42,292 bases of DNA, from the sequence record NC_041897.1, one strand, 5' to 3'. The DNA is from Escherichia phage K1ind1. Shown piece by piece: positions 1,264 to 26,655 of this stretch (position 1 is its first letter; every line of letters begins with the position of its first letter). The translations under genes were made by a program, and so were the position numbers. A model generated the notes under the pieces. It was not told where the DNA came from and ran no database searches. It saw only the letters and a program-made list of their open reading frames with translations.

Positions 1264-2745
1264 ATGTTAACTATGAACGGTCAGAATCAGGGTGTTAAGA
1301 CAAAACACCGGGAATGGCTGCATCACTTCGATAAATGGCAGAAGGTGCGCCACGCACTGGAGGGTGACCTTATCCGCTATCTGCGAAACGTCGGGAAGAA
1401 CGAGCCGGACCCAACTTATGCAGCCCAGCGCCAGGAAGAATACGAGAACGGCGCTATCTGCTACAATTTCACCAAGCGTACCCTGTCGGGTATGGTTGGC
1501 TCGGTAATGCGAAAAGACCCGGAGCAGATTATTCCACGTGAACTGGAATACCTGTTACGCAATGCCGATGGCTCGGGTGTCGGCCTGTGGCAGCACGCGC
1601 AGGATACGCTGATGGAGATTGACTCGGTGGGTCGTGGCGGTTTACTGGTGGATGCGCCGGAGACAGCGGCAGCGACGGCAGCCGAACAGAACGCCGGATT
1701 ATTAAACCCGGTCATCGCATTCTATACCGCAGAGAACATCATCAACTGGCGACTCACTCGCGTAGGCTCTGTTAACCGCGTTACGATGGTAGTGCTGCGT
1801 GAGGTATGGGAATATTCAGAACCTGGAGCCGAGTTTGAAACCAAGTTTGGGGAACAATACCGCGTTCTCGACTTGATTGACGGGCGCTACCGTCAGCGCA
1901 TATACCGATTCGATGCGGAAGGCGGCGCGCAAGACGAAGTAATAGAAATCTTCCCGGAACTGGGCGAACAGTTGCGCGGTAAAATCCCGTTCACGTTCAT
2001 CGGGGCCAGCAACAACGACGCGACGGTTGATGACGCGCCTTTGCTGCCGTTAGCTGAGCTTAATATCGGGCATTTTCGCAACAGCGCAGACAATGAGGAA
2101 TCTAGCTTCGTTGTAGGCCAGCCCACTCTGTTCATCGCCCCCGGTGAGAACATGAGCATGGTGCAATGGAAAGAGGCCAACCCCCACGGCGTACGTATGG
2201 GTTCACGTTCGGGCCACAATATCGGCTACGGCGGCAACGCGTTTCTGGTCCAGGCGGGAGAGAATAACCTCGCCAAACAGAACATGTTGGATAAAGAGAA
2301 TCAGGCAATCCAGATTGGTGCACAGCTTATCACGCCTACGCAGCAAATCACCGCCGAATCCGCTCGCCTGCAACGTGCTGCCGATACGTCCGTAATGGCG
2401 ACCATTGCGCGTAACGTAAGCATGGCGTACACCGAAGCGTTGCGTTGGGTGGCTGCGATGCTGGGTCTACGCGAAGGAACGGAAATTGAGTTCAAGCTGA
2501 ATATGGAATTCTTCCTGCAACCAATGACCGCTCAGGACCGTGCGCAGTGGATGGCAGACATTAATGCCGGTTTACTACCGGCAACTGCTTACTACGCCGC
2601 GTTGCGTAAGGCTGGGGTAACTGACTGGACTGACGAGGAGATTACAACGGCTATTGAGGATGCACCTGTGCCGTTAGGCGCTGTTACTCAGGTAACTGGC
2701 GAGATTCCGCAGTCGGCGCAACAGCAGGATGCCACCCAGCAGTAA
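1264..2745 (+). CDS. portal protein
   Basis: 493 aa ORF immediately after terL; size, position and acidic C-terminus typical of portal proteins. Confidence 0.7.
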   Translation: MLTMNGQNQGVKTKHREWLHHFDKWQKVRHALEGDLIRYLRNVGKNEPDPTYAAQRQEEYENGAICYNFTKRTLSGMVGSVMRKDPEQIIPRELEYLLRNADGSGVGLWQHAQDTLMEIDSVGRGGLLVDAPETAAATAAEQNAGLLNPVIAFYTAENIINWRLTRVGSVNRVTMVVLREVWEYSEPGAEFETKFGEQYRVLDLIDGRYRQRIYRFDAEGGAQDEVIEIFPELGEQLRGKIPFTFIGASNNDATVDDAPLLPLAELNIGHFRNSADNEESSFVVGQPTLFIAPGENMSMVQWKEANPHGVRMGSRSGHNIGYGGNAFLVQAGENNLAKQNMLDKENQAIQIGAQLITPTQQITAESARLQRAADTSVMATIARNVSMAYTEALRWVAAMLGLREGTEIEFKLNMEFFLQPMTAQDRAQWMADINAGLLPATAYYAALRKAGVTDWTDEEITTAIEDAPVPLGAVTQVTGEIPQSAQQQDATQQ

Positions 2746-2755
2746 GTCCGCATAT

Positions 2756-2777
2756 AGCCCCGAAAGGGGCTTTCTTA
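2756..2777 (+). terminator. hairpin AGCCCC-GAAA-GGGGCT followed by interrupted T-run (possible partial terminator/RNA stabiliser)
   Basis: stem-loop read directly; same hairpin sequence recurs at 4325. Confidence 0.35.
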
Positions 2778-2781
2778 TAGT

Positions 2782-3858
2782 ATGCTATTAACTTTAGCGC
2801 CACAGGGTTTATCTATGAGCTTACTTACATCGCTAATCAGCCACCAGATATGGCTGCAACGCACCGCATCCGGCGAAGTGAAAGACCTCGCGCCGTTCAT
2901 TAAGGAAATGCGGGACGAAATCAAACGGCAGGTGCTGCTATTCGGTGACGACGGGCGTAGCACCGCGCGACTGAATAAACTGTTACGCGACCTGGAAGAA
3001 GCACTGGCAGGACTTACAGGTGACTGGCGAACAAAGCTGACAGAAGACCTTAAGGAACTGGCAGCGTATGAGGCGGAGTGGAACGTAAAAACGCTGACGA
3101 CTAACGTCAACGCGGAATTTGTTACACCTACCGCCGAACAGGTGTGGGCCGCTGCCGAGTTTCAGCCCTTATCGTTAAGCTACAAACCTGTTGATTTCAC
3201 TAAGCTGATGTCAGGCTGGGGTGAAACCGAAGTCGCGCGCCTGGTAACGGGTGTTAAGATGGGCTTTGTACAAGGTCAAACCACGCGGCAGATTGTTAAG
3301 AATGTTGTTGGTGCCGGTGGGCTAACTGACATATCTGAGCGCACCGCGGCTACCGTCATCCGCACCGCGCTGTCTCACGTGTCCAACGAAGCCCGTAACG
3401 AGACGTACCGCCAGAACGACGACATCATCGAGAAGTACGAGTGGGTGTCAACGCTTGACAGCCGCACCAGTACGATTTGCAGGGTCAGAGACGGAATGAC
3501 GTGGAGAATCGGTAAAGGTCCGATGCCCCCCGCCCATCCTAACTGTCGAAGTACCACGGCCCCTGTAATCAGTTCCGAGTTCGACTTCCTCGATAAAGGC
3601 GCAAAACGCGCGGCTAAAGGCGCATACGGCGGTACTCAGGTAAGCGCGGACACCACTTATTACGAGTTCCTGAAACAACAGCCTGCATGGTTTCAGGACC
3701 AGGCGCTCGGCCCTGTTCGCGGTAAGATTTTCCGTAACAGCGGTATATCGCCGGAAGAGTTTCGCGTAATATCTGTAGATGGTTTCGGGAATCCGCTCAC
3801 GCTTAAACAGATGGCGGAACTCGATAAACGTGTTGCTGATTATCTGAAAGGGGATTAA
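2782..3858 (+). CDS. head morphogenesis / minor head protein (Mu F / SPP1 gp7-like position)
   Basis: 358 aa ORF following portal; assignment by synteny and size, not by a recognised motif. Confidence 0.5.
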   Translation: MLLTLAPQGLSMSLLTSLISHQIWLQRTASGEVKDLAPFIKEMRDEIKRQVLLFGDDGRSTARLNKLLRDLEEALAGLTGDWRTKLTEDLKELAAYEAEWNVKTLTTNVNAEFVTPTAEQVWAAAEFQPLSLSYKPVDFTKLMSGWGETEVARLVTGVKMGFVQGQTTRQIVKNVVGAGGLTDISERTAATVIRTALSHVSNEARNETYRQNDDIIEKYEWVSTLDSRTSTICRVRDGMTWRIGKGPMPPAHPNCRSTTAPVISSEFDFLDKGAKRAAKGAYGGTQVSADTTYYEFLKQQPAWFQDQALGPVRGKIFRNSGISPEEFRVISVDGFGNPLTLKQMAELDKRVADYLKGD

Positions 3859-9769: not shown

Positions 9770-10182
9770 TGGGCTACTTTGAGGACTTAACGAAAGCGTT
9801 TGATGCGCCGCTGGTAGCCTTCGGAACCGCCAACGGCATCAAGGTCGCGCTTGAAAATATCGACGCGCCGACGTCAACCGATACGCCGTATCTGGCAAGT
9901 TATATGTTGCTGGCGGATACGGAACAGGCGGATTTGTTCTTCACGGAACAACGCGCGGGTGTTTATCAGGTCGACATTAACTACGCATCGGTGAAAGGTA
10001 GCGCGCCGATCAATAAAATGGCAGACTTACTTAACACGGCGTTTAAAGCAGGTAAGTCATTTTCACGTAACGACATCTGCGCCGTTGTGAATGAGGTTAG
10101 CCTGGGGCCGCTGATTGTAGAAAACGGATGGGCCAAACGACCATTGTCAATTAACTTTATTGCATTCACCAAGAGGCTGTGA
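9766..10182 (+). CDS. tail terminator-like protein
   Basis: 138 aa; immediately upstream of major tail gene. Confidence 0.4.
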   Translation: MMGYFEDLTKAFDAPLVAFGTANGIKVALENIDAPTSTDTPYLASYMLLADTEQADLFFTEQRAGVYQVDINYASVKGSAPINKMADLLNTAFKAGKSFSRNDICAVVNEVSLGPLIVENGWAKRPLSINFIAFTKRL

Positions 10183-10184
10183 AT

Positions 10185-11351
10185 ATGGCTACAACTCCTT
10201 TTAAGGGCGCGAATACTGCGCAATTCTATGTGGCAGAAACTACCCCGGGCGTAACACCGACTAACCCGGTCTGGTCGCCATTGCGTAACACAGGTGGCGT
10301 TCCTGCCATTACCCGCGACACGCTGACCTCCAACGAACTGGACGGCAGCCGTGAAACTACGTCAATCCGCACCGGTAACAAGCAGGTTAGCGGAGAATAC
10401 GCTATTGAGCTTAGCTCGAAAAGCCAGGACGACTGGCTGGCGGGTGCTTTAGGCTCTACATGGCAATCCGGTAGTTCTCTGACCGGGCTATCAATTACCG
10501 TCGCGCCTGCAGGCAAGACCTTTACCCGTGCCGAAGGTAGCTTTATTTCTGACGGCGTTGAAGTGGGCGACCTGATTGCGTTTACCGACTTAACCGGTGA
10601 CAACGCAAAACCGTTTATCGTAACTGCAGTAGAGGCACTGGTAGTGACCGGGGCGGGTATCCAGCATACCCTGACCACAGAGACAGTAACTACCGCCGCT
10701 AAGACAGGGGATAAACTGGAAACGGGAAGCCAGTGCAAGACGTTCTCTATTCTCACCTGGTACAAAGGCCAGTGCGGCGGGACTGACGCGTACACACTAA
10801 CCAAAGGCGTGGAAGTTTCTGGTTTTACCATCGAACAGGCTGTTAACGCTATGGTAACTGGCAGCTTCCCGTTCATCGGTCGCAGTCAGGAGATTCTCAC
10901 CACGCAGCCGTCTGGTTCTGATTTCTCCTCTGTTACGTTTGGTGACGAGCCGTTCTCCTCGGTCGATGTTTCTGTGTTCGACGGTTCTACGCCGTTGCGT
11001 TGCGACAGCCTGACCATCACCAACGACAACAGCGCGTCCGCACAGTTCGAACTCGGCAACACTAACGTAGCGTTTGTGGAGCGTAGCCGAGCAGCTAACA
11101 CCTTCTCCATCTCCGGTAAGCTGTACGACATGGCGATGATTCAGAAGTTTATCAACGAGCAGCAGGTGGAGATTAACTCTATTCTGGCGGGGGTAAACGG
11201 GGCTATGTCTTTCAGCTTGAAACGTGCAGAACTTACCGCGGTTACACCTGAGATTGGCGGGCCTGAGTCAATCACTCAGTCCATCGAAGGCCAGGCTACT
11301 GGTAACCAGTACCAGTCGTCTATTGTTATTCAGCGCATCACCTACGCATAA
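10185..11351 (+). CDS. major tail protein
   Basis: about 388 aa from ATG 10185 (AAGAGG RBS); T/S/G-rich; precedes chaperone/tape-measure genes; followed by strong terminator. Confidence 0.55.
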   Translation: MATTPFKGANTAQFYVAETTPGVTPTNPVWSPLRNTGGVPAITRDTLTSNELDGSRETTSIRTGNKQVSGEYAIELSSKSQDDWLAGALGSTWQSGSSLTGLSITVAPAGKTFTRAEGSFISDGVEVGDLIAFTDLTGDNAKPFIVTAVEALVVTGAGIQHTLTTETVTTAAKTGDKLETGSQCKTFSILTWYKGQCGGTDAYTLTKGVEVSGFTIEQAVNAMVTGSFPFIGRSQEILTTQPSGSDFSSVTFGDEPFSSVDVSVFDGSTPLRCDSLTITNDNSASAQFELGNTNVAFVERSRAANTFSISGKLYDMAMIQKFINEQQVEINSILAGVNGAMSFSLKRAELTAVTPEIGGPESITQSIEGQATGNQYQSSIVIQRITYA

Positions 11352-11355
11352 AACT

Positions 11356-11380
11356 AAGGCCCCTTTCGGGGCCTTTTTCT
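11356..11380. terminator. bidirectional rho-independent terminator
   Basis: AGGCCCC-TTTC-GGGGCCT hairpin flanked by T-run on plus strand and TTAGTTTT on minus strand; separates major tail gene from convergent island. Confidence 0.6.
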
Positions 11381-11934
11381 TACAAACCTAATATTAAAGC
11401 AATACCTATAGCGTTCGATTTAACGTAACCCGGTATGATGTAGGTGTCATAATCTTTTACACCATCAATATCGTACAGGTAACCGCGGCTGTCCCCTTCA
11501 AACGTATGGCCGTCTCTGTGCAAGCGGACGATTCTCACATCATGCCCTGCGGCAACGATAGGGGCTACTTCGCTGGCGAACCCGCCATCAGACACCACAA
11601 AAACTTCGTCGCCGTCGGGCAAGTTTCCGGCAAGATACTTACCGAAATAATCATCACCGAATACCGGTTTAATGAATTGCTCGGAAATGGCAATCATGAG
11701 CTGACGCCGAGACAACCCGTTAAGGAAACCCTCTGGCTTTTCTTTCCGCGCCCGGTCGTCGTAGCCGTCGAGAAACTCGCGGTAAGCATCCTGGCCTAAC
11801 GCAGCCATAGCAATATTGAACATCGGATTCTTGAAACTGGCGACACCCTTCGCAAAGCCCATTTCTACCAGCGCCCTAGCAAGTGTGTCTTTCCCGCAGC
11901 CCGCAGGACCATTAAGAATAATTACCTTAGCCAT
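11380..11934 (-). CDS. P-loop nucleotide/polynucleotide kinase (dNMP-kinase-like)
   Basis: 184 aa; Walker A GPAGCGKDT near N-terminus; small alpha/beta kinase size; last gene of leftward island. Confidence 0.6.
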   Translation of the reverse strand: MAKVIILNGPAGCGKDTLARALVEMGFAKGVASFKNPMFNIAMAALGQDAYREFLDGYDDRARKEKPEGFLNGLSRRQLMIAISEQFIKPVFGDDYFGKYLAGNLPDGDEVFVVSDGGFASEVAPIVAAGHDVRIVRLHRDGHTFEGDSRGYLYDIDGVKDYDTYIIPGYVKSNAIGIALILGL

Positions 11935-12419
11935 TATTTATCACTCCCATGTGGTTTTAAGTGTGTAGAGTTCCCGTTACAGTCGTATTCAGTAACTGCG
12001 TGAGTGGTTATGCCGAGTTCGCGGAAATGCTTTATTACCGCTGGAGAGTCGTCGAATGCACACAAGATTCTCTCCGGCCCAATAGCACGCAACACCTCTT
12101 CTTTAATTACGATGTCTTTTCTGTTGTCGTGTTTGCTGCGCATGATTAACTGATAAAATTCGACGCGGTGGCGCTGCAACCACATTCTGGTTTCTTTTTC
12201 CGCGTCATCACTACGGCCTGTTAAGATAATAACGGCATAGCGACGATTAAGGGCGTTACACAGTTCGATGTTATCTTTAATGGGTGCATCGTCTTTGCAC
12301 GCCATGTTAAATGGTTTCCACGCCCAGGTTTCGCCGTAGTTATCTTTCGGCAGCAGGTGTAAACGATGAGTACCATCTGCCAATGTCCCGTCTAAATCGA
12401 AAATCACAATATCTTTCAT
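11934..12419 (-). CDS. HAD-superfamily phosphatase
   Basis: 161 aa; HAD motif I FDLDGTL, motif II ILTGR, motif IV FDDS; start overlaps upstream stop (ATGA). Confidence 0.65.
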   Translation of the reverse strand: MKDIVIFDLDGTLADGTHRLHLLPKDNYGETWAWKPFNMACKDDAPIKDNIELCNALNRRYAVIILTGRSDDAEKETRMWLQRHRVEFYQLIMRSKHDNRKDIVIKEEVLRAIGPERILCAFDDSPAVIKHFRELGITTHAVTEYDCNGNSTHLKPHGSDK

Positions 12420-13546
12420 CCAAGCATCTCCGGTGAAATAGTTAAACGTGCGACCTCGCCATATTCGGCGCTATAAGTAATTACGTTTGCACTGCGGCCC
12501 GACATCCACCCACCGCGGGAGGCATATGCATCTTTAGCCGCGAGAGTGCGGTGTTGCTCAACAATCATGTTACGGCTTTCTACAATCTTTTGGTGGTGCA
12601 GGTGACCCACGTGGGCGTAGCTGTAAACACTCTCGCCGAACGCTTTGCGGAACTTGGCGATCATAACCGGTTCGATAGCGTCGAATCGTGCTTTATGCCC
12701 ATGATGGAAGAACAGCGTCGTTTTGCCGTGTTGCACCATCTTGTAAACATCCGGCGACGTATCGACGAACACACGCGGCTCATTGTCGTACAGCGTACTA
12801 AACATCTCAGCTAACCAAATCATTCCGCTTTCGTCGTGGTTACCTTGCACAATAAGCAAGCGAACATTTTTATGCTTAACAAGGGCCATATCAACGACAC
12901 GGCGGACCATACGAATCATGTAGCGGACCAGTTTCTGATAGCGCGTGTCCGCATCGAGAACATGACCACTTGCCGGTGTAACGGCGTCCAGGCTATCGAA
13001 GTGCGCAAGGTCGCCGAGCAGATTAATAACTCCTGTTCCTGCATCCGGCGCTTTCTGAAACGCGGCATCGAACCAACGAGAGAACAGGTCTTCCGCGATT
13101 TTCATATCCCAGTCGTCGCCGCTCTCGTCAGCCCATGCCAGCATACCGAGGTGAAAATCAGATACCGTGTAAAGATTGAGTAGCTTGCCGTCGCGTTTGG
13201 CGCGTGCTGCTTTAACAGGGGCGACTGGCGTAATCTCTGATTTCATTCCTTCGATTACGGCTTTCATCAACTCGACCTGACGTTCAGCATCGGTGTCTGT
13301 CTTAACCCATTGCAACTTAGTGTTGCCGAACTCGTCCACCAGCGACGACGTTCCTTTAATCTTGTAGCCGTCCGGCACAAGGTGACTAACGTCGCGCCCG
13401 TGGCCTACGCCTTTCTTAGCCAGCTTCGCTTTACGGATACGGATAACGCGGTCAGAGATGCCGTATTTACGAGCTATATCGATATTCTTCATCCCGGCGT
13501 TCAATTCTTCCTGCAACTGTTCGTCGGTTATTTTCTTCTGGGCCAT
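12416..13546 (-). CDS. HTH domain fused to calcineurin-like metallophosphoesterase
   Basis: 376 aa; N-terminal HTH (NIDIARKYGISDRVIRIRKAKL); metallophosphoesterase motifs SDFHLG, GDLAHFD, GNHDE, HHGH, GHLHH; GAGGAAG RBS. Confidence 0.65.
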   Translation of the reverse strand: MAQKKITDEQLQEELNAGMKNIDIARKYGISDRVIRIRKAKLAKKGVGHGRDVSHLVPDGYKIKGTSSLVDEFGNTKLQWVKTDTDAERQVELMKAVIEGMKSEITPVAPVKAARAKRDGKLLNLYTVSDFHLGMLAWADESGDDWDMKIAEDLFSRWFDAAFQKAPDAGTGVINLLGDLAHFDSLDAVTPASGHVLDADTRYQKLVRYMIRMVRRVVDMALVKHKNVRLLIVQGNHDESGMIWLAEMFSTLYDNEPRVFVDTSPDVYKMVQHGKTTLFFHHGHKARFDAIEPVMIAKFRKAFGESVYSYAHVGHLHHQKIVESRNMIVEQHRTLAAKDAYASRGGWMSGRSANVITYSAEYGEVARLTISPEMLG

Positions 13547-13584: not shown

Positions 13585-13776
13585 TCACTTCTCGTTAACA
13601 TTCGAGTTGCACGCCCAGATTAAAATAAAGACCCACGGCAGCAGCGCCCAGCCAAGAAACAGATTAGCCATGAATATCGCTAACTTCGCTTTATGGTTAC
13701 GGAAGTACGCAACCAGGAAAGGCGCAAAATAAACGAGAAGTGCAAACAGAATTAAGGAAACTGGTAAACTTGACAT
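13585..13776 (-). CDS. small membrane protein, superinfection-immunity (Imm) family-like
   Basis: 63 aa from second ATG (GGAGG RBS); two hydrophobic helices flanking RNHKAKLAIF...GWALLPW, a pattern resembling the Imm superinfection family. Confidence 0.5.
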   Translation of the reverse strand: MSSLPVSLILFALLVYFAPFLVAYFRNHKAKLAIFMANLFLGWALLPWVFILIWACNSNVNEK

Positions 13777-13806
13777 TTTAAATCCCTCCATTGTTGGTGT
13801 AAGTGA

Positions 13807-13835
13807 ATAGTACCCTATTATATTGGGGTGTGCAA
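13807..13835 (-). promoter_or_regulatory. sigma70-like promoter TTGCAC-17-TACTAT with embedded AATAG-N4-CTATT palindrome (13806-13819)
   Basis: minus-strand reading CTTGCACACCCCAATATAATAGGGTACTATTCAC is nearly identical to the plus-strand cassette at 35342; lies about 30 nt upstream of the Imm-like gene. Confidence 0.5.
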
Positions 13836-13943
13836 GTAATGTGATAGAATAATTTTGCGCCTAGTGTCGCACACGAAAAGCGGATGGTTACCGTCTGGCG
13901 CATTTATCGTTAACCTGTAACCTCTTAACCAAAGGATTAAAGA

Positions 13944-14360
13944 ATGAAACTTTCTGATTTTTATTTCGAAGAGAAAGCACTGGCGGGCAAGAAGATGCCG
14001 ATTTTGCTGCCGAATGGTGAAGACTCCGGCGAGTGGCTTAATGTCGTAAATCCTGATGCGGATGCCGCCGTTAAAGCGGGGCGTGCTTTCATTATTGCGT
14101 ACCGCCGCGGGCTGGCACGTTTTGAAGAACTGGAAAAAGCTGCCAAAGACTCTGGTGATTATACTGAATATAATCTGGCGGTTAACGAACTGGCGGAAGA
14201 CCTAAACCGGCAACTCGCGGCAGAAGTCGTAAACGGCTGGAGCTTTGATGAGCCTTTCTCTAAGGAAGCGTTTAACAAATTGCTCGACCAGTTCAAAGCA
14301 TTAGGCACACAGGTAGCTGCGTTTCATAACGCTGAGCGCAAAGCATTACAGGAAAAGTAG
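13944..14360 (+). CDS. tail assembly chaperone (gpG-like)
   Basis: 138 aa acidic protein immediately upstream of tape measure; classic position. Confidence 0.55.
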   Translation: MKLSDFYFEEKALAGKKMPILLPNGEDSGEWLNVVNPDADAAVKAGRAFIIAYRRGLARFEELEKAAKDSGDYTEYNLAVNELAEDLNRQLAAEVVNGWSFDEPFSKEAFNKLLDQFKALGTQVAAFHNAERKALQEK

Positions 14361-21830: not shown

Positions 21831-23996
21831 ATGTCAAGCGGATGCGGTGACGTTTTAAGCCTGGCGGATTTACAAACTGCCAAGAAACACCAGATTTTCG
21901 AAGCCGAGGTTATCACCGGTAAATCCGGTGGGGTTGCTGGCGGTGCTGATATTGATTACGCGACAAACGCCGTTACGGGGCAGACACAGAAGACACTCCC
22001 TGCGGTTCTTAAAAGCATTGGTTTTGCCGTGGCTGATTTTAGTTTCGATTCTGGGGGTACTCTTGCATCCGGGGACGAGGACAAGATAGTGCTCTGGCCG
22101 TTGCCGGGGGGTGATGGTCAGTACTACTCCTGGACTGGTGCGTATCCTAAGATTGTTCCCGCATCCTCGTCCCCGACAACAGGATGGAAACTTATAGACG
22201 GCTCTGCATTACGAATCGACCTGTCAGAATTTAGTGGGGCTTCTCTGGTTGGGTACTCTTACGACGGTAGCCTAAGCACCACAAAAAGAACGGTTGCTGA
22301 TAAATTAGATGATATGGTCAGCCTGTGGGATTTTCATTGTGACTCATCCGGGGATGTAATTCAGCCTGGGGTTAGCGTTGACAGTCGTCAGTATCTGCAA
22401 GCAGCTATAGACTACCTTAACGCAAACGGCGGTGGAACACTACATATACCGGAAGGTACATGGTATCTGAATAGCGTTAGCACAGGACCTGTATCGGGTC
22501 ATAGTGGCCTAATACAATTGAAAAGCAATGTAAGTATTAAGCTAGACGGTACTATTAAAGTAGGGTCTGCTTTGGCCTCCTCGTCATTTCAGGTGTTTGT
22601 AGGATTTGATAATGGCGACCCCGCAAGCTCCGGTAATCTCAATAATTGCCATATTTACGGCAACGGTACGATAGACTTTGGTGGTTATGACTTTGGGGCG
22701 ACATCACAGTTACGCAACGGTATCGCTTTTGGTCGCAGCTACAACTGCTCAGTAACCGGTATTACTTTCCAGAACGGTGATGTTACTTGGGGTGTTACCC
22801 TTGGCTGGAATGGGTATGGGTCTGATTGCAAGGTATCTAACTGTAAGTTTATTAATTTGATACAGAGTGCTAACAACGCGGACCACAGTACCGTATATGT
22901 TAACTGTCCTTTCAGTGGTGTAGATAACTGCATATTCCGTGCGGTGAGTTCAAGGGCGCAAGTTATAGCGTGTTCAGTGGAGCTACACCAACATGATACC
23001 TGGTACAGAGATTCAATTATCTCCGGATACACACGCGGCTGTTATGTGGCTCTGCATGGGGCAGAATCCGCAGGAGCGGGTACATACCTGTACAATGCTG
23101 TTGTGTCAGGGGTAATTGGTGATATTTCCGGGCAAGCAGTAATTTTAGCCGCGGGTCCGGATTCAACAGCCACCACCCACATTAACGGTGTGTCTATCGA
23201 GAACTGTAGATTTACCGCCGGTAGTCAGGCGGGTATGTGCAGCTTCATAGACTTCTTCCAAGATAGTAACTCGAACTCTAGCCAGTACCTCATTAACCAT
23301 GTAACGGTTAAAGGGTGCAGCTTCATTGTAGACCGTAGCCGGTCTCTGTCTGCGGCAATAACCTTAAACGGTAGTATCCAGGGCATTATTTTTCAGAATA
23401 ATTTCTTTGATGTTAAGCAGGCAATGGTGTCGGAACTGCCTGATGGCCGTACCGTACAATTGGAGCGGTTCAACTGGGATAGCAGTAACATCATTGGCGA
23501 CGATAATACTGGAACCCGTACCGCATTAAATCTGTTTGAGACTCTTCGCGTTTCGAGTATGACAAGATGTAATATAAGTATTCATATGCGGCATCCAAGT
23601 TCGGAACTGTATAGCTTCATGTATTTCAGGCCGAATGCTACAACATTCAGCAACTGTACCTTTGAGGTATTGCCATATAATTGGTCTTGCACATCCGGTA
23701 ATCCTATATTTTTTGACAGTACAGGTGTCCCAGCGTCTGGAATGCGCGTCAGGTTTCCTAAACAAATTTCGTTCACATTGTCAGCCGGGAGTAACGCCCA
23801 ACGTGCAACGGGTGGTTCTTCGTACTCTTGGGTGGCCCGGGCGGACGCTCTTGACCGTCGCGGTATTTCTGGACAATTTGATGCCCCTTCATCGTATGCG
23901 GGATCGAGTAACGGGCAGTTGGTAGGTCTAGGCTGGCAGCTTGACGGCGTACAACATACGTATGACCATAACGTTCTTTTGCAAAGTTTTACCTGA
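21831..23996 (+). CDS. tailspike / tail fiber with right-handed beta-helix (depolymerase-like) domain
   Basis: 721 aa; N-terminal about 150-aa adaptor-like segment then G/N/S/T-rich repeats typical of beta-helix tailspikes; last morphogenesis gene. Confidence 0.55.
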   Translation: MSSGCGDVLSLADLQTAKKHQIFEAEVITGKSGGVAGGADIDYATNAVTGQTQKTLPAVLKSIGFAVADFSFDSGGTLASGDEDKIVLWPLPGGDGQYYSWTGAYPKIVPASSSPTTGWKLIDGSALRIDLSEFSGASLVGYSYDGSLSTTKRTVADKLDDMVSLWDFHCDSSGDVIQPGVSVDSRQYLQAAIDYLNANGGGTLHIPEGTWYLNSVSTGPVSGHSGLIQLKSNVSIKLDGTIKVGSALASSSFQVFVGFDNGDPASSGNLNNCHIYGNGTIDFGGYDFGATSQLRNGIAFGRSYNCSVTGITFQNGDVTWGVTLGWNGYGSDCKVSNCKFINLIQSANNADHSTVYVNCPFSGVDNCIFRAVSSRAQVIACSVELHQHDTWYRDSIISGYTRGCYVALHGAESAGAGTYLYNAVVSGVIGDISGQAVILAAGPDSTATTHINGVSIENCRFTAGSQAGMCSFIDFFQDSNSNSSQYLINHVTVKGCSFIVDRSRSLSAAITLNGSIQGIIFQNNFFDVKQAMVSELPDGRTVQLERFNWDSSNIIGDDNTGTRTALNLFETLRVSSMTRCNISIHMRHPSSELYSFMYFRPNATTFSNCTFEVLPYNWSCTSGNPIFFDSTGVPASGMRVRFPKQISFTLSAGSNAQRATGGSSYSWVARADALDRRGISGQFDAPSSYAGSSNGQLVGLGWQLDGVQHTYDHNVLLQSFT

Positions 23997-24417: not shown

Positions 24418-25838
24418 TTCTTACCTCGTCTCTTCATGTAATTAAGCAATTCTTCTTGCACAGATTTCTTTTCGTCAGTACGCGCGGCGACAACCTCGTC
24501 CAGCGTGTCTTTAGCAACGATGTGGTACAGGAACACCGGCCTCTCGTGTCCTGCCTGTTTCTGGCGGACCGGGCCTATTCGCTCGACAACCTGCAAATAG
24601 TGTTCAAGATTCCAGCCTTGCGAAATAAACGCCAGATGATGCCCGCCGTCCTGTAAATTCAAACCATGCCCGGCTGACGCAGGATGCACGCATAAGATTT
24701 CGATTTCCCCGCGGTTCCACGCTTCCATCTGCTTATTGCCCTTAGCGCCTTTGGCGAACGCCTGTGCTTGTGGGAATCGCTTAAGGATACGCTCAAGTTC
24801 GTGCTTAAACTGATAGGCTACCAGTAACGGTGCGCCCTGTAACTCCTCAACAATGGACTCAAGCGCATCCAGTTTCGTATCGTGCACTTTCTCCCAGTCT
24901 TTCGTTGCTTCGCCGTCTGGCCCGGATACATACACGGCACCGGATGCAATCTGCAGGCACTTCGACGTCTTCGCAGCAGCGTTAGCCGCTTCAACTTCCC
25001 CGCTCTCCAGTTCCGCGAATAACTTTTCCTCCATATCGATGTACGCCTGACGCGCCTTCTTCGGCAGGTCAATTTCCACTGGCACGATAATCGGCGCTTC
25101 GCAACCAAACCACTCGGCGGCGTCAATCGTGAGACTAATGTCTTTCATCTTCTGATGAATCTCATTATCCGCACCCGGTCGTGCGTGATACTCCCGCGCC
25201 ATCGCGGATTTCCCTTTCTGTACCGAGTTAAACCAGCGGTCTGTGAATGCCGTGTACGAAGAACCAAGGCGCTCGCCAGCGTCGATAAACCAGTTCTGCC
25301 CCCACAAGTCCTTGAGGCCGTTCGGCGACGGTGTGCCTGTCAGGTTAATGAAACGCTTAACCTTTCCGAACGCCACTTTGCTTAGCGCCTTAGCCCGTTT
25401 GCTTCCTCCAGAACGGCTACGGAAAGATTTCAGCTTCGTGCTCTCATCAGCAACGATAACCGTAAAAGGCCAGTCGTCTTTGCCGTAGTAGTCAATCAGC
25501 CACTCGATAACTTCGTAGTTTGTGCACACCACGTTAGCATCTGACTCCAGCGCCGCGATACGGCGCTTCTCTGAACCGGTTGCGTCTACGACACTCAGAC
25601 AGGGGAAGTTCCAACGTGCCTGTTCCGCGGGCCACGTACCTGACGCAACACGTAAAGGAGCCAGAATTAACACTCGGTCGTCGTCATTAAGTTGCCCATT
25701 ACGGAACAGCCGATTGAGAACCCACAACGTTGACCCCGACTTACCGCTGCCCATGCTCGCCCAGATATTGCAGCGATGGTGCCGCAGCATGAACGAAGTC
25801 ATGAGCTTCTGGTATTCGCGCCTTTGAAACTTACTCAT
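24414..25838 (-). CDS. superfamily-2 helicase (SNF2/DEAD-like)
   Basis: 474 aa; Walker A SMGSGKSGST, DExx box IVADESTK, motif VI-like QVVERIGPVRQKQ. Confidence 0.65.
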   Translation of the reverse strand: MSKFQRREYQKLMTSFMLRHHRCNIWASMGSGKSGSTLWVLNRLFRNGQLNDDDRVLILAPLRVASGTWPAEQARWNFPCLSVVDATGSEKRRIAALESDANVVCTNYEVIEWLIDYYGKDDWPFTVIVADESTKLKSFRSRSGGSKRAKALSKVAFGKVKRFINLTGTPSPNGLKDLWGQNWFIDAGERLGSSYTAFTDRWFNSVQKGKSAMAREYHARPGADNEIHQKMKDISLTIDAAEWFGCEAPIIVPVEIDLPKKARQAYIDMEEKLFAELESGEVEAANAAAKTSKCLQIASGAVYVSGPDGEATKDWEKVHDTKLDALESIVEELQGAPLLVAYQFKHELERILKRFPQAQAFAKGAKGNKQMEAWNRGEIEILCVHPASAGHGLNLQDGGHHLAFISQGWNLEHYLQVVERIGPVRQKQAGHERPVFLYHIVAKDTLDEVVAARTDEKKSVQEELLNYMKRRGKK

Positions 25839-26655
25839 TTACCGCCCCCATGAATGCCTTTATAAATTCAGCGGCTACTTGCGGGACGATGGCATTGCCA
25901 TAACCGCGCAATCGTCCCACTCTGGCGGGTATCCCATTAGCCAGCGGGAATGCGCCGGGTTCAACTGGCCTGAATTTTCCATCCCGGCATCCGAGCCAGT
26001 CAGTATCTGACCAGAAGCCGTGATGCGGATTGGTTGTGTTATTTTCAGACCCTGCTCCGTCGAGTAGTCCAGCCTGTCGAATGTCCTGTCCTTCCCGTCC
26101 TTGCGAATCACTGTCTCTCCGCTCCCCCTGTAGTCGTTCGCTGTCGGTGTAGGCCAATTGGTGCGCACCAAAGAAGAGCCGCTCTCTTTTGTGCGGTGCG
26201 CCGACGCTACAAGCTGGAAGTACGGCAAACCCGACGGCGTAGTCTTCTCTTTCCATGTGAATCTGTAAATCGCACATCCACGATTTTGCAATTGCTGGCG
26301 CAACCTGTTCCCCAAAGAGGACTGGAGGGCGGCACTCGCTGATGAGGTCGAGGAACACAGGTGCAAGGTGTCTAGGGTCGAACTGTCCGAGTTGCTTTCC
26401 CGCCGCGCTAAACGGTTGGCAAGGCGGGCTTCCCGTCCAGAGAGGCGCATCTTCCGGAACTCCCGCAAGTCTGAGCGCGAGAGGCCAGCCGCCGATACCC
26501 GCGAAAAAATGACACTGGGTGAACCCGTCAAGGTCTTCTGGCTTAACTTCGGTAATGCTTCTTTCATCTACAACTCCAAAAGGTATGTGACCCTGTTTTA
26601 TTAATTCACGCAGCCACGCGGCTGCACCTTTATCCCATTCGTTGTAATAGTTCAT
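25831..26655 (-). CDS. DNA (cytosine-5)-methyltransferase
   Basis: 274 aa; motif I FAGIGG, motif IV PCQPFS, ENV-like FGEQV, C-terminal motif X GNAIVPQV; short target-recognition region. Confidence 0.75.
   Translation of the reverse strand: MNYYNEWDKGAAAWLRELIKQGHIPFGVVDERSITEVKPEDLDGFTQCHFFAGIGGWPLALRLAGVPEDAPLWTGSPPCQPFSAAGKQLGQFDPRHLAPVFLDLISECRPPVLFGEQVAPAIAKSWMCDLQIHMEREDYAVGFAVLPACSVGAPHKRERLFFGAHQLAYTDSERLQGERRDSDSQGREGQDIRQAGLLDGAGSENNTTNPHHGFWSDTDWLGCRDGKFRPVEPGAFPLANGIPARVGRLRGYGNAIVPQVAAEFIKAFMGAVNE

What the first reader, a model, noticed from the sequence alone, without database searches (positions are those of the whole stretch)
11380..13546. Kinase + HAD phosphatase + metallophosphoesterase trio: candidate nucleic-acid end-healing or nucleotide-signal-processing module
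The three enzymes together resemble the catalytic parts of polynucleotide kinase-phosphatase systems. T4 Pnkp joins a P-loop 5'-kinase to a DxDGT HAD 3'-phosphatase, and bacterial Pnkp adds a calcineurin-like phosphoesterase. Here they are separate genes and the phosphoesterase carries a DNA-binding HTH. No ligase is seen nearby, so the substrate is open. Alternatives are dNMP kinase plus nucleotidase (nucleotide-pool remodelling), or degradation of defence signalling nucleotides. Any of these would be an unusual cargo in a tail operon.
Basis: inference. Interest (0 to 1): 0.75.

Follow-up and report, generated by a model that had tools for sequence, protein, structure and literature searches.

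The report
Phage dNMP-kinase, phosphatase, nuclease operon
Three neighbouring phage genes proposed as a kit for repairing broken nucleic-acid ends are more likely a set for recycling DNA building blocks, and they are a common, already annotated feature of this phage group.

Summary
Three overlapping minus-strand ORFs at 11380-13546 encode a P-loop kinase, a DxDGT HAD phosphatase and an HTH-fused metallophosphoesterase (MPE). The window is a near-complete Kagunavirus genome (Guernseyvirinae), 96-97% identical to K1G and fTaEco01, where these genes are already annotated.

The end-healing reading fails for two of the three proteins.
- **MPE:** it is closest to Mre11, SbcD and PolD-DP1, not to the lambda-phosphatase type found in bacterial Pnkp.
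- **HAD:** it does belong to the T4 Pnkp-phosphatase clade, which also holds the T5 5'-dNMPase Dmp, so its substrate is undecided.
- **Ligase:** none is encoded in the window.

HAD→kinase linkage recurs in 16 of 31 kinase lineages, and the full MPE→HAD→kinase order in 7. Each gene also occurs alone.

The best reading is a separately transcribed accessory operon for DNA breakdown and dNMP salvage. It is a new member of a known kind, of modest interest.

The parts
13817..13845 (-). sigma70-like promoter candidate (ATCACA-17-TATAAT) upstream of the island's first gene
   Evidence: Consensus scan, 10 of 12 matches; sequence read. A pattern match only, not shown to be active.
13585..13791 (-). 68-aa membrane protein of the superinfection-immunity family; first gene of the antisense island
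   Evidence: Pfam Imm_superinfect, 50.1 bits against a cut-off of 27.9; PHROG 1039, E=2e-23.
12416..13546 (-). 376-aa protein: N-terminal HTH (about residues 5-45), a beta-hairpin/helix linker (about 60-105) and a metallophosphoesterase domain (about 119-376) of the Mre11/SbcD/DP1 type
11934..12419 (-). 161-aa stand-alone HAD (DxDxT) phosphatase of the T4 Pnkp-phosphatase / T5 Dmp clade; its start overlaps the MPE stop (ATGA)
   Evidence: Pfam HAD_PNKP, 72.1 bits; PHROG 415, E=8e-67. hhalign against the T4 Pnkp phosphatase domain gives probability 98.1, and against T5/VPG01 Dmp 96.1. Catalytic residues align as D8, D10, T67, R69, K106, D123, D124. Overlap read.
11380..11934 (-). 184-aa dNMP kinase (DNK) of the T4 gp1 / Rao1 R1DNK family; its start overlaps the HAD stop (TAATG)
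11356..11375 (.). bidirectional hairpin terminator between the convergent tail-tube gene and the kinase gene
   Evidence: 8-bp stem with 6 GC pairs and T-runs on both strands; sequence read.

Best explanation
The island is a separately transcribed accessory operon (imm, HTH-MPE, HAD, DNK) concerned with DNA breakdown and the deoxynucleotide pool. It is not an end-healing system.

Step shown in an orthologue: the last gene is a broad-specificity dNMP kinase. It converts 5'-dNMPs to dNDPs, which host Ndk raises to dNTPs for phage DNA synthesis.

Steps inferred:
- The HAD phosphatase, translationally coupled to the kinase and placed upstream of it in half of all kinase lineages sampled, conditions the substrate stream. 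It could remove 3'-phosphates from DNA fragments or 3'-dNMPs (T4 Pnkp-like chemistry, the closer relative). Or it could selectively dephosphorylate certain 5'-dNMPs (T5 Dmp-like chemistry).
- The HTH-MPE is an Mre11/SbcD-like DNA phosphodiesterase. It binds DNA through its HTH and generates the fragments or dNMPs.

The MPE is a core gene of a very large group of siphophages and may also act independently of the other two. The HAD-DNK pair is the tighter functional unit.
For: Kinase:
- It shares PHROG 139 with T4 gp1 and R1DNK.
- It is 49% identical over 172 aa to Rao1 gp58. The preprint 10.1101/2024.12.20.629578 reports that this protein phosphorylates dAMP, dGMP, dCMP and dTMP in vitro, raises dADP in vivo and contributes to dATP levels during infection.
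- Two further members of the same family, from vB_KpnS-VAC2 and KarlJaspers, trigger Kongming.
- In rV5 the homologue lies near thymidylate synthase and RNR.

Linkage:
- In 31 kinase clusters (70% identity) from IMG/VR loci, 7 carry adjacent MPE→HAD→DNK, 7 carry HAD→DNK with a gap, 2 carry adjacent HAD→DNK without the MPE, and 15 carry DNK alone. Wherever both are present, HAD precedes DNK on the same strand.
- The trio occurs in the same order in KP36, PsgS01F and Rao1.
- The start and stop codons overlap.

HAD: the catalytic set of T4 Pnkp phosphatase is conserved, and the family profile is closer to T4 Pnkp than to Dmp (40.5 against about 20 bits).

MPE: motifs are invariant, and the best folds are Mre11, SbcD and DP1.

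Precedents:
- A phage MPE that degrades host genomic DNA: mycobacteriophage A10ZJ24 gp48, PMC12287305.
- Host DNA degraded to dNMPs and recycled in T4-type phages, as summarised in 10.64898/2026.01.15.699771.

No other nucleotide-metabolism enzyme, ligase or Rad50 is found in the window.
Against: - No activity was measured for any of the three window proteins.
- Deleting dnk in Rao1 had no apparent fitness cost in the laboratory, so salvage is dispensable there.
- The HAD substrate is undecided between 3'-phosphate and 5'-dNMP. A 5'-dNMPase co-translated with a dNMP kinase would be partly futile.
- The MPE occurs without HAD or DNK in Jerseyvirus, Dhillonvirus and Tempevirinae. Its link to the pair may be synteny by descent.
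- Host-DNA degradation by Kagunavirus has not been documented in anything I found.
Confidence: 0.55

Rival explanations
1. Split Pnkp-like end-healing module. The kinase phosphorylates 5'-OH ends, the HAD removes 3'-phosphates, the MPE opens 2',3'-cyclic phosphates, and a host ligase seals the break.
For: - The HAD is a true T4 Pnkp-phosphatase relative: Pfam HAD_PNKP 72 bits, PDB hits Pnkp1 and T4 Pnkp, hhalign probability 98.1.
- It is persistently linked to a P-loop kinase.
- A 3'-phosphatase alone could prepare DNA nicks for host ligase.
Against: - The kinase is a dNMP kinase by fold, family and characterised orthologue. Pfam AAA_33, the T4 Pnkp kinase family, matches only residues 4-25 at 16 bits, against 82 bits for T4 Pnkp itself.
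- The MPE is not of the lambda-phosphatase/CthPnkp type.
- Gene order is the reverse of the T4 Pnkp domain order.
- No RNA or DNA ligase is encoded in the window.
Confidence: 0.1
2. Counter-defence pairing. The HAD is a T5 Dmp-like 5'-dNMPase that trims dAMP, dIMP or other 'danger' dNMPs, so that the phage's own DNK does not feed dITP-type immune signalling (Kongming) or dNMP-sensing systems.
For: - T5 Dmp falls in the same PHROG 415 as the window HAD, full length, E=3.6e-57.
- It aligns over the whole domain with identical catalytic residues and a shared 'HR...N.AC..D' cap segment.
- The Kongming preprint reports frequent co-existence of Dmp and DNK and shows that Dmp blocks DNK-triggered immunity.
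- HAD→DNK adjacency occurs in 16 of 31 DNK clusters.
Against: - Rao1 carries the same trio, gp56 to gp58, yet is sensitive to Kongming. It escapes only by mutating gp58 or its promoter region, and it is protected when T5 Dmp is supplied in trans.
- The HAD family scores twice as high against T4 Pnkp as against Dmp.
- It lacks Dmp's internal insertion and its C-terminal extension of roughly 65 aa.
- T5 Dmp does not hit Pfam HAD_PNKP, whereas the window HAD does.
Confidence: 0.15
3. The MPE, or the trio together, degrades cyclic-nucleotide or other defence signalling nucleotides (CBASS, Thoeris or Pycsar type).
Against: - The best fold matches are DNA nucleases and polymerase exonuclease subunits.
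- An N-terminal HTH argues for a DNA substrate.
- The family behaves as a core gene of huge breadth: 2053 phage records and 4632 clusters at 50% identity. It does not look like a patchy anti-defence gene.
- Sequence searches against solved structures returned only weak P-loop, HTH and Mre11/SbcD matches, and no known signal-degrading enzyme.
Confidence: 0.04
4. The three genes are functionally unrelated neighbours. The MPE is a core replication, recombination or regulatory gene, and HAD and DNK are independent accessory genes that happen to sit in the same insertion hot-spot.
For: - Each gene occurs alone in many phages: MPE only in Jersey, Dhillonvirus and Tempevirinae; HAD only in Drulisvirus; DNK only in 15 of 31 clusters.
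- In Jersey the same island carries different cargo downstream of the MPE.
- In T1 the homologues are numbered p16 and p62, which suggests they lie far apart (notes).
Against: - HAD→DNK order and strand are conserved in every one of the 16 clusters that have both.
- Seven diverged clusters (kinase 43-55% identical) keep the full trio adjacent.
- The start and stop codons overlap.
Confidence: 0.15

Closest known systems
Phage dNMP kinases: T4 gp1 (PDB 1DEK) and Rao1 gp58 (R1DNK), PHROG 139
   Same: P-loop GxxGxGKD(T) with K15, the same PHROG, the best structural match, and 49% identity to R1DNK. The mechanism is expected to be identical: dNMP + ATP gives dNDP.
   Different: Shorter than T4 gp1 (184 against 241 aa) and only 21% identical to it. 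Profile searches do not reach 1DEK by sequence. Substrate range is untested for this protein.
T4 polynucleotide kinase-phosphatase (Pnkp/PseT), C-terminal DxDxT phosphatase domain; Capnocytophaga Pnkp1
   Same: The HAD shares the catalytic residues Asp-nucleophile, Asp acid/base, Ser/Thr, Lys and Mg-binding Asp, plus the 'DxRKDxV(I/V)KEE' segment.
   Different: It is a stand-alone 161-aa protein with a longer cap insertion. It is not fused to a Pnk-type kinase, no ligase partner is present, and the neighbouring kinase belongs to a different kinase family.
T5 deoxyribonucleotide 5'-monophosphatase (Dmp), an anti-Kongming factor
   Same: Same PHROG 415, homologous over the whole HAD core, a shared N-terminal 'DLDGTxxxxxHR' and cap motif, and co-occurrence with a phage DNK.
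   Different: Only 22-23% identity. The HAD lacks Dmp's insertion and C-terminal extension. Its profile score is half that for T4 Pnkp. Rao1, which has the same HAD, is not protected from Kongming.
Mre11 / SbcD nucleases and the PolD DP1 exonuclease subunit
   Different: The alignment covers only about 185-200 residues of the catalytic core. The window has no Rad50/SbcC partner and no polymerase catalytic subunit of the D family. The N-terminal HTH and linker are unique to this family.
Bacterial Pnkp of the Pnkp-Hen1 system (Clostridium thermocellum)
   Same: At superfamily level only: a P-loop kinase plus a binuclear metallophosphoesterase.
Mycobacteriophage A10ZJ24 gp48 (PMC12287305)
   Same: A phage MPE with phosphodiesterase activity, expressed early, that breaks up host genomic DNA. 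It is a working precedent for the role proposed for the window MPE.
   Different: Motif I lies at residue 10, so it has no HTH. No Mycobacterium phages appear among the ten most frequent genera in the tblastn matches of the window MPE. This is a functional analogy, not demonstrated orthology.

Membership tests
T4-type polynucleotide kinase-phosphatase (Pnkp) | Pnk-type P-loop 5'-OH kinase domain (Pfam AAA_33-like; Lys15, Asp35 general base, Arg126) | tested here: not met
T4-type polynucleotide kinase-phosphatase (Pnkp) | DxDxT acylphosphatase domain with the nucleophile Asp, acid/base Asp, Ser/Thr, Lys and Mg-binding Asp (T4 D165, D167, S211, K258, D278; PMC3592404) | tested here: met
   These align to D8, D10, T67, K106 and D124. 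R19 and R69 align with the T4 arginines in the same columns. Pfam HAD_PNKP 72.1 bits; hhalign probability 98.1.
T4-type polynucleotide kinase-phosphatase (Pnkp) | Kinase and phosphatase fused in one polypeptide (kinase N-terminal), working with a cognate ligase | tested here: not met
   The genes are separate and in the reverse order, HAD then kinase. No ligase appears among the window ORFs or in the annotation of the 96%-identical fTaEco01.
Bacterial Pnkp (Pnkp-Hen1 RNA repair) | Lambda-phosphatase-type metallophosphoesterase module, with ligase domain and Hen1 partner | tested here: not met
Phage dNMP kinase (T4 gp1 / R1DNK, PHROG 139) | P-loop GxxGxGKD(T) with catalytic Lys15 and the family's conserved substrate-side residues | tested here: met
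   G14, K15, D16, K35, R61, K64, R77, S84, E85, D116, G118, F119, E122, D148, S149 and R150 are invariant in 49 homologues. K15 is the residue mutated to inactivate R1DNK.
Phage dNMP kinase (T4 gp1 / R1DNK, PHROG 139) | Fold and sequence similarity to characterised members | tested here: met
Phage dNMP kinase (T4 gp1 / R1DNK, PHROG 139) | dNMP to dNDP phosphotransfer activity | not testable with these tools
   Shown for the orthologue R1DNK only (10.1101/2024.12.20.629578).
T5 Dmp-type 5'-deoxyribonucleotidase | HAD core homologous to T5 Dmp with the conserved Asp (D22 in T5) | tested here: met
   PHROG 415 is shared. hhalign probability 96.1 over 135 columns. D8 aligns with T5 D22.
T5 Dmp-type 5'-deoxyribonucleotidase | Dmp-specific architecture (internal insertion before the Lys motif, C-terminal extension) and closest-relative status | tested here: not met
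   161 aa against 244 aa; both the insertion and the C-terminal tail are missing. The family HMM scores T4 Pnkp at 40.5 bits and the Dmps at 19-20 bits.
T5 Dmp-type 5'-deoxyribonucleotidase | Protects a DNK-encoding phage from Kongming | tested here: inconclusive
   Indirect only. Rao1 encodes the orthologous HAD gp57 next to R1DNK and is still Kongming-sensitive. Expression timing or level could explain this.
Mre11/SbcD nuclease | Five phosphoesterase motifs with the metal-ligand His, Asp and Asn residues | tested here: met
   D130, H132, D179, N236, H237, H282, H315 and H317 are invariant.
Mre11/SbcD nuclease | Capping domain and a Rad50/SbcC ATPase partner | tested here: not met
Mre11/SbcD nuclease | DNA exo- or endonuclease activity | not testable with these tools

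The most novel reading that the evidence does not exclude
The HAD is a dedicated partner of the dNMP kinase that edits the salvage stream. It would be a selective phosphatase, intermediate between the T4 Pnkp phosphatase and T5 Dmp, that removes non-canonical or 'danger' nucleotides released when the HTH-MPE nuclease degrades DNA (3'-dNMPs, dIMP, dUMP, m6-dAMP). The phage could then recycle host DNA without feeding dNMP-sensing immunity such as Kongming or PUA-Cal-HAD. On this reading the conserved MPE→HAD→DNK order would be a three-step 'degrade, filter, recharge' cassette.
Probability: 0.15. Interest if true: 0.6.

Novelty: new member of a known kind. Interest (0 to 1): 0.3.

Why it matters
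The re-reading corrects a widespread annotation habit. 'Polynucleotide kinase' or 'kinase-phosphatase' is attached to a HAD phosphatase that contains no kinase, and the true kinase next door is left as 'ATPase', 'replication factor C' or 'hypothetical'.

It also links this Kagunavirus to current work on nucleotide-based immunity. The phage encodes a member of the kinase family that triggers Kongming, so it is predicted to be a Kongming target.

It identifies an uncharacterised, persistently linked phosphatase (Rao1 gp57 and its orthologues). That phosphatase is homologous both to the T4 Pnkp phosphatase and to the T5 anti-Kongming enzyme Dmp. One cheap biochemical experiment would settle which chemistry it performs.

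The HTH-MPE is one of the largest uncharacterised phage enzyme families seen here (4632 clusters at 50% identity), so assigning it a function would annotate thousands of genomes.

Tried and rejected
- **First homologue search with the MPE alone.** It returned 120 near-identical proteins, useless for modelling. I repeated it with diverse alignments as queries.
- **Profile of the MPE family against PDB sequences.** It gave only marginal hits (GerE 0.11, Nuclease MPE 0.19, SbcD/Mre11 about 0.8), so fold comparison was needed.
- **NCBIfam.** It added nothing.
- **Literature searches on Kagunavirus/Guernseyvirinae plus these enzymes.** They found only genome announcements.
- **HAD as a simple anti-Kongming Dmp.** Considered, and downgraded because Rao1 carries the trio and is sensitive.
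- **Signal-nucleotide degradation by the MPE.** Considered, and rejected as unsupported by fold and distribution.
Full report
**What the window is.** The 4-kb stretch around the finding is 96-97% identical to Escherichia phages P AB-2017, fTaEco01, K1ind2/3 and K1G. All are Kagunavirus, subfamily Guernseyvirinae, with genomes of 41-44 kb. The 42.3-kb window is therefore essentially a whole phage genome. In those records the three genes already carry names such as 'metallophosphoesterase', 'putative polynucleotide kinase/phosphatase' and 'putative deoxynucleotide kinase'.

**The observation.** It is correct. Three minus-strand ORFs occupy 11380-11934 (184 aa), 11934-12419 (161 aa) and 12416-13546 (376 aa). 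Their starts and stops overlap: ATGA between the MPE and the HAD, and TAATG between the HAD and the kinase.

- A fourth co-oriented gene at 13585-13791 encodes a 68-aa Imm_superinfect membrane protein.
- The unit lies antisense between the tail-tube gene (10179-11351, Phage_tube_2) and the tail-assembly-chaperone gene (13944-14360).
- A sigma70-like site lies upstream at 13845-13817. An 8-bp GC-rich hairpin at 11356-11375, with T-runs on both strands, lies between the convergent stops.
- The genes are therefore embedded in the tail region but are not part of the tail transcript. The promoter and terminator calls are pattern matches only.

**The kinase.** Pfam sees only the P-loop, below threshold. 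PHROGs places the protein in family 139, 'deoxynucleoside monophosphate kinase', at E=5.8e-46. T4 gp1 (1.8e-65) and Rao1 gp58 (5.7e-44) fall in the same family.

- An AF2 model built on 49 diverse homologues has mean pLDDT 92.2.
- The decisive link is in the literature. The preprint 10.1101/2024.12.20.629578 identified gp58 of coliphage Rao1 (R1DNK) as the trigger of the Kongming defence system. It showed that the purified protein phosphorylates dAMP, dGMP, dCMP and dTMP, and weakly dIMP. A K15A mutant is inactive, and deleting the gene moderately lowers dATP during infection without an apparent fitness cost.
- The R1DNK sequence from that paper's supplementary table is 49% identical to the window kinase over 172 residues (E=1e-59), with the same numbering of K15.
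- Two more members of the family, from Klebsiella phage VAC2 and coliphage KarlJaspers, also triggered Kongming.

The kinase is therefore a dNMP kinase, and the claim that it is a Pnk-type 5'-OH kinase fails its membership test.

**The HAD.** It matches Pfam HAD_PNKP at 72.1 bits against a cut-off of 27.6. Its best solved relatives are Capnocytophaga Pnkp1 and the T4 Pnkp phosphatase domain.

- In a joint alignment, the residues that PMC3592404 lists as driving T4 phosphatase chemistry (Asp165, Asp167, Ser211, Lys258, Asp278) align with D8, D10, T67, K106 and D124.
- As a control I ran T5 Dmp, the 5'-deoxyribonucleotidase shown in the Kongming preprint to deplete dAMP and protect phages. It has no Pfam hit. 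It does fall full-length in PHROG 415, the same family as the window HAD, which PHROGs labels 'polynucleotide kinase'.
- T5 Dmp aligns over the whole core with the same catalytic residues, and shares a cap segment with the window HAD that T4 lacks.
- Quantitatively the window HAD family is nearer T4. hhalign gives probability 98.1 (E=8e-14) against the T4 phosphatase domain and 96.1 (E=3e-9) against the Dmps. The family HMM scores T4 Pnkp at 40.5 bits and the Dmps at 19-20 bits.

The family assignment is secure, but the substrate is not: 3'-phosphate ends and 3'-dNMPs, or 5'-dNMPs.

**The MPE.** PHROG 704, 'DNA repair exonuclease', matches at E=1e-167. The family is very large: 2053 phage records and 4632 clusters at 50% identity.

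- All metal-ligand residues are invariant among homologues of 31-49% identity, so it is an active enzyme.
- The AF2 model (pLDDT 79.9) shows a three-helix N-terminal bundle, a hairpin/helix linker and the phosphoesterase sandwich.
- The margin over generic small MPEs is small, so 'Mre11/SbcD-like nuclease' is the best reading but not a proven one. No Rad50/SbcC partner is encoded.
- A functional precedent exists. Mycobacteriophage A10ZJ24 gp48, an HTH-less MPE, has phosphodiesterase activity and breaks up host genomic DNA early in infection (PMC12287305).

**Is the trio a module?**

- In Guernseyvirinae the MPE is the constant. Salmonella phage Jersey has the MPE in the same island, followed by other genes, with no HAD or kinase.
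- Dhillonvirus and Tempevirinae have the MPE alone. Drulisvirus has the HAD alone beside endonuclease VII and an exonuclease. phiR8-01 and rV5 have the kinase alone, in rV5 near thymidylate synthase and RNR.
- The same three genes in the same order occur in Webervirus KP36, Pseudomonas phage PsgS01F and Rao1 (gp56, gp57, gp58), there next to the lysis genes.
- I fetched 159 IMG/VR loci anchored on the HAD or the kinase and scanned them with family HMMs. Clustered at 70% kinase identity, the 31 lineages split as follows: 7 with adjacent MPE→HAD→DNK, 7 with HAD→DNK separated by a gap, 2 with adjacent HAD→DNK without the MPE, and 15 with the kinase alone. Wherever both are present, the HAD precedes the kinase on the same strand.

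The HAD-kinase pair is therefore a recurrent unit. The MPE is frequently, but not obligatorily, attached. The sample is not phylogenetically corrected, and shared ancestry of these siphophages inflates the counts.

**Mechanism proposed.** The only nucleotide-metabolism enzymes in the genome are these. No ligase, RNR, thymidylate synthase or Rad50 is present. The coherent reading is salvage.

- DNA is broken down by a nuclease. The MPE is the candidate, and this step is inferred.
- Phosphate-blocked ends or unsuitable mononucleotides are handled by the HAD. This step is inferred and the substrate is open.
- 5'-dNMPs are raised to dNDPs by the kinase, as shown for the orthologue, and on to dNTPs by host Ndk.
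- This parallels T4 (EndoII/IV, then gp1) as summarised in 10.64898/2026.01.15.699771. From my own knowledge it also parallels T7 (gp3 and gp6, then gp1.7).
- T4's gene 1 also sits among tail genes, so the location is not exceptional.

**Rivals.**

- End-healing is disfavoured by the kinase identity, the MPE type and the absence of any ligase. It survives only as 'the HAD alone may clean 3'-phosphate DNA ends'.
- The Dmp-like counter-defence idea is attractive because of the homology and the conserved pairing. However, Rao1 carries the orthologous HAD and is nevertheless Kongming-sensitive, escapes by mutating gp58 or its promoter region, and is protected by T5 Dmp in trans.
- Signal-nucleotide degradation has no specific support.
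- Functional independence of the MPE from the pair remains quite possible.

**Verdict.** The kinase belongs to a family characterised in 2024. The HAD and the MPE are new members of known kinds with undetermined substrates. Interest is modest at 0.3. The testable residue is the chemistry of the DNK-linked HAD and the role of the very widespread HTH-MPE.

Noticed in passing
L002 3992-5134; L003 3995-5113; L006 3827-4957; L095 2192-3325; L176/L177 6001-7122; L178 6001-7125: Outside Guernseyvirinae, the HTH-MPE gene repeatedly sits as the last sizeable gene before the lysis cassette or the terminase genes. This holds in Dhillonvirus, Tempevirinae, Webervirus, Rao1 and lambdoid-like metagenomic contigs with NinB and RecA_dep_nuc upstream. 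That is the position usually held by late-gene regulators. Its HTH gives a weak hit to PHROG 836 'late transcriptional activator' (E=0.0013), and KP36's annotators noted Sigma70_r4_2. A regulatory role for the HTH cannot be excluded.
   Followed up: partly
PHROG 415 / 505; annotations listed: The HAD is widely annotated as 'polynucleotide kinase' or 'kinase-phosphatase' although it has no kinase domain. The real kinase next door is labelled 'ATPase', 'replication factor C large subunit', 'GTP-binding protein era', 'phosphomevalonate kinase' or 'hypothetical'. T5 Dmp, a proven 5'-dNMPase, sits in the PHROG called 'polynucleotide kinase' and has no Pfam hit at E<=0.01.
   Followed up: yes
L095 3403-3951 (Rao1 gp57) and 2192-3325 (gp56): The phage used to discover the Kongming trigger carries the same MPE→HAD→DNK trio. 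A term search for 'gp57' found nothing in the paper's supplements, and the main-text passages I read do not mention gp56 or gp57. Some escape mutations map to the 'promoter region of gp58', which would lie in or near the roughly 50-bp gap after the HAD gene.
   Followed up: partly
window 13585-13791 (-): The first gene of the island encodes a T4 Imm-type superinfection-immunity membrane protein (Pfam 50.1 bits). The island therefore mixes an exclusion function with the three enzymes, which is typical of an accessory or moron hot-spot. In phage Jersey the flanking small genes differ.
   Followed up: no
window 21831-23996 (+): The ORF at about the position where K1-specific relatives such as fTaEco01 carry an endosialidase tailspike is a 721-aa protein with a Phage_spike_2 domain. 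This phage may have a different receptor specificity from the K1 phages it otherwise resembles.
   Followed up: no
window 25831-26655 (-) and 25875-26567 (-): Two long ORFs overlap on the same strand in the C5-cytosine methyltransferase region. The relative fTaEco01 annotates both, one as a DNA cytosine methyltransferase and one as an 'Mte8-like' methyltransferase.
   Followed up: no
phage records MG065641.1, MG065669.1, MG065682.1: Several records named 'Campylobacter phage' (A14a, A123, A112b) carry close homologues of coliphage T1-like or rV5-like proteins, at 46-52% identity to the window MPE or kinase and with matching genome sizes. This suggests that the host or name labels in those unannotated records are doubtful.
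   Followed up: no
L013 1650-2375 (T4 gene 1): T4's own dNMP kinase gene lies between the tail-fibre chaperone gene 57A and the tail-terminator gene 3. A dNMP kinase embedded among tail genes therefore has a classical precedent.
   Followed up: yes
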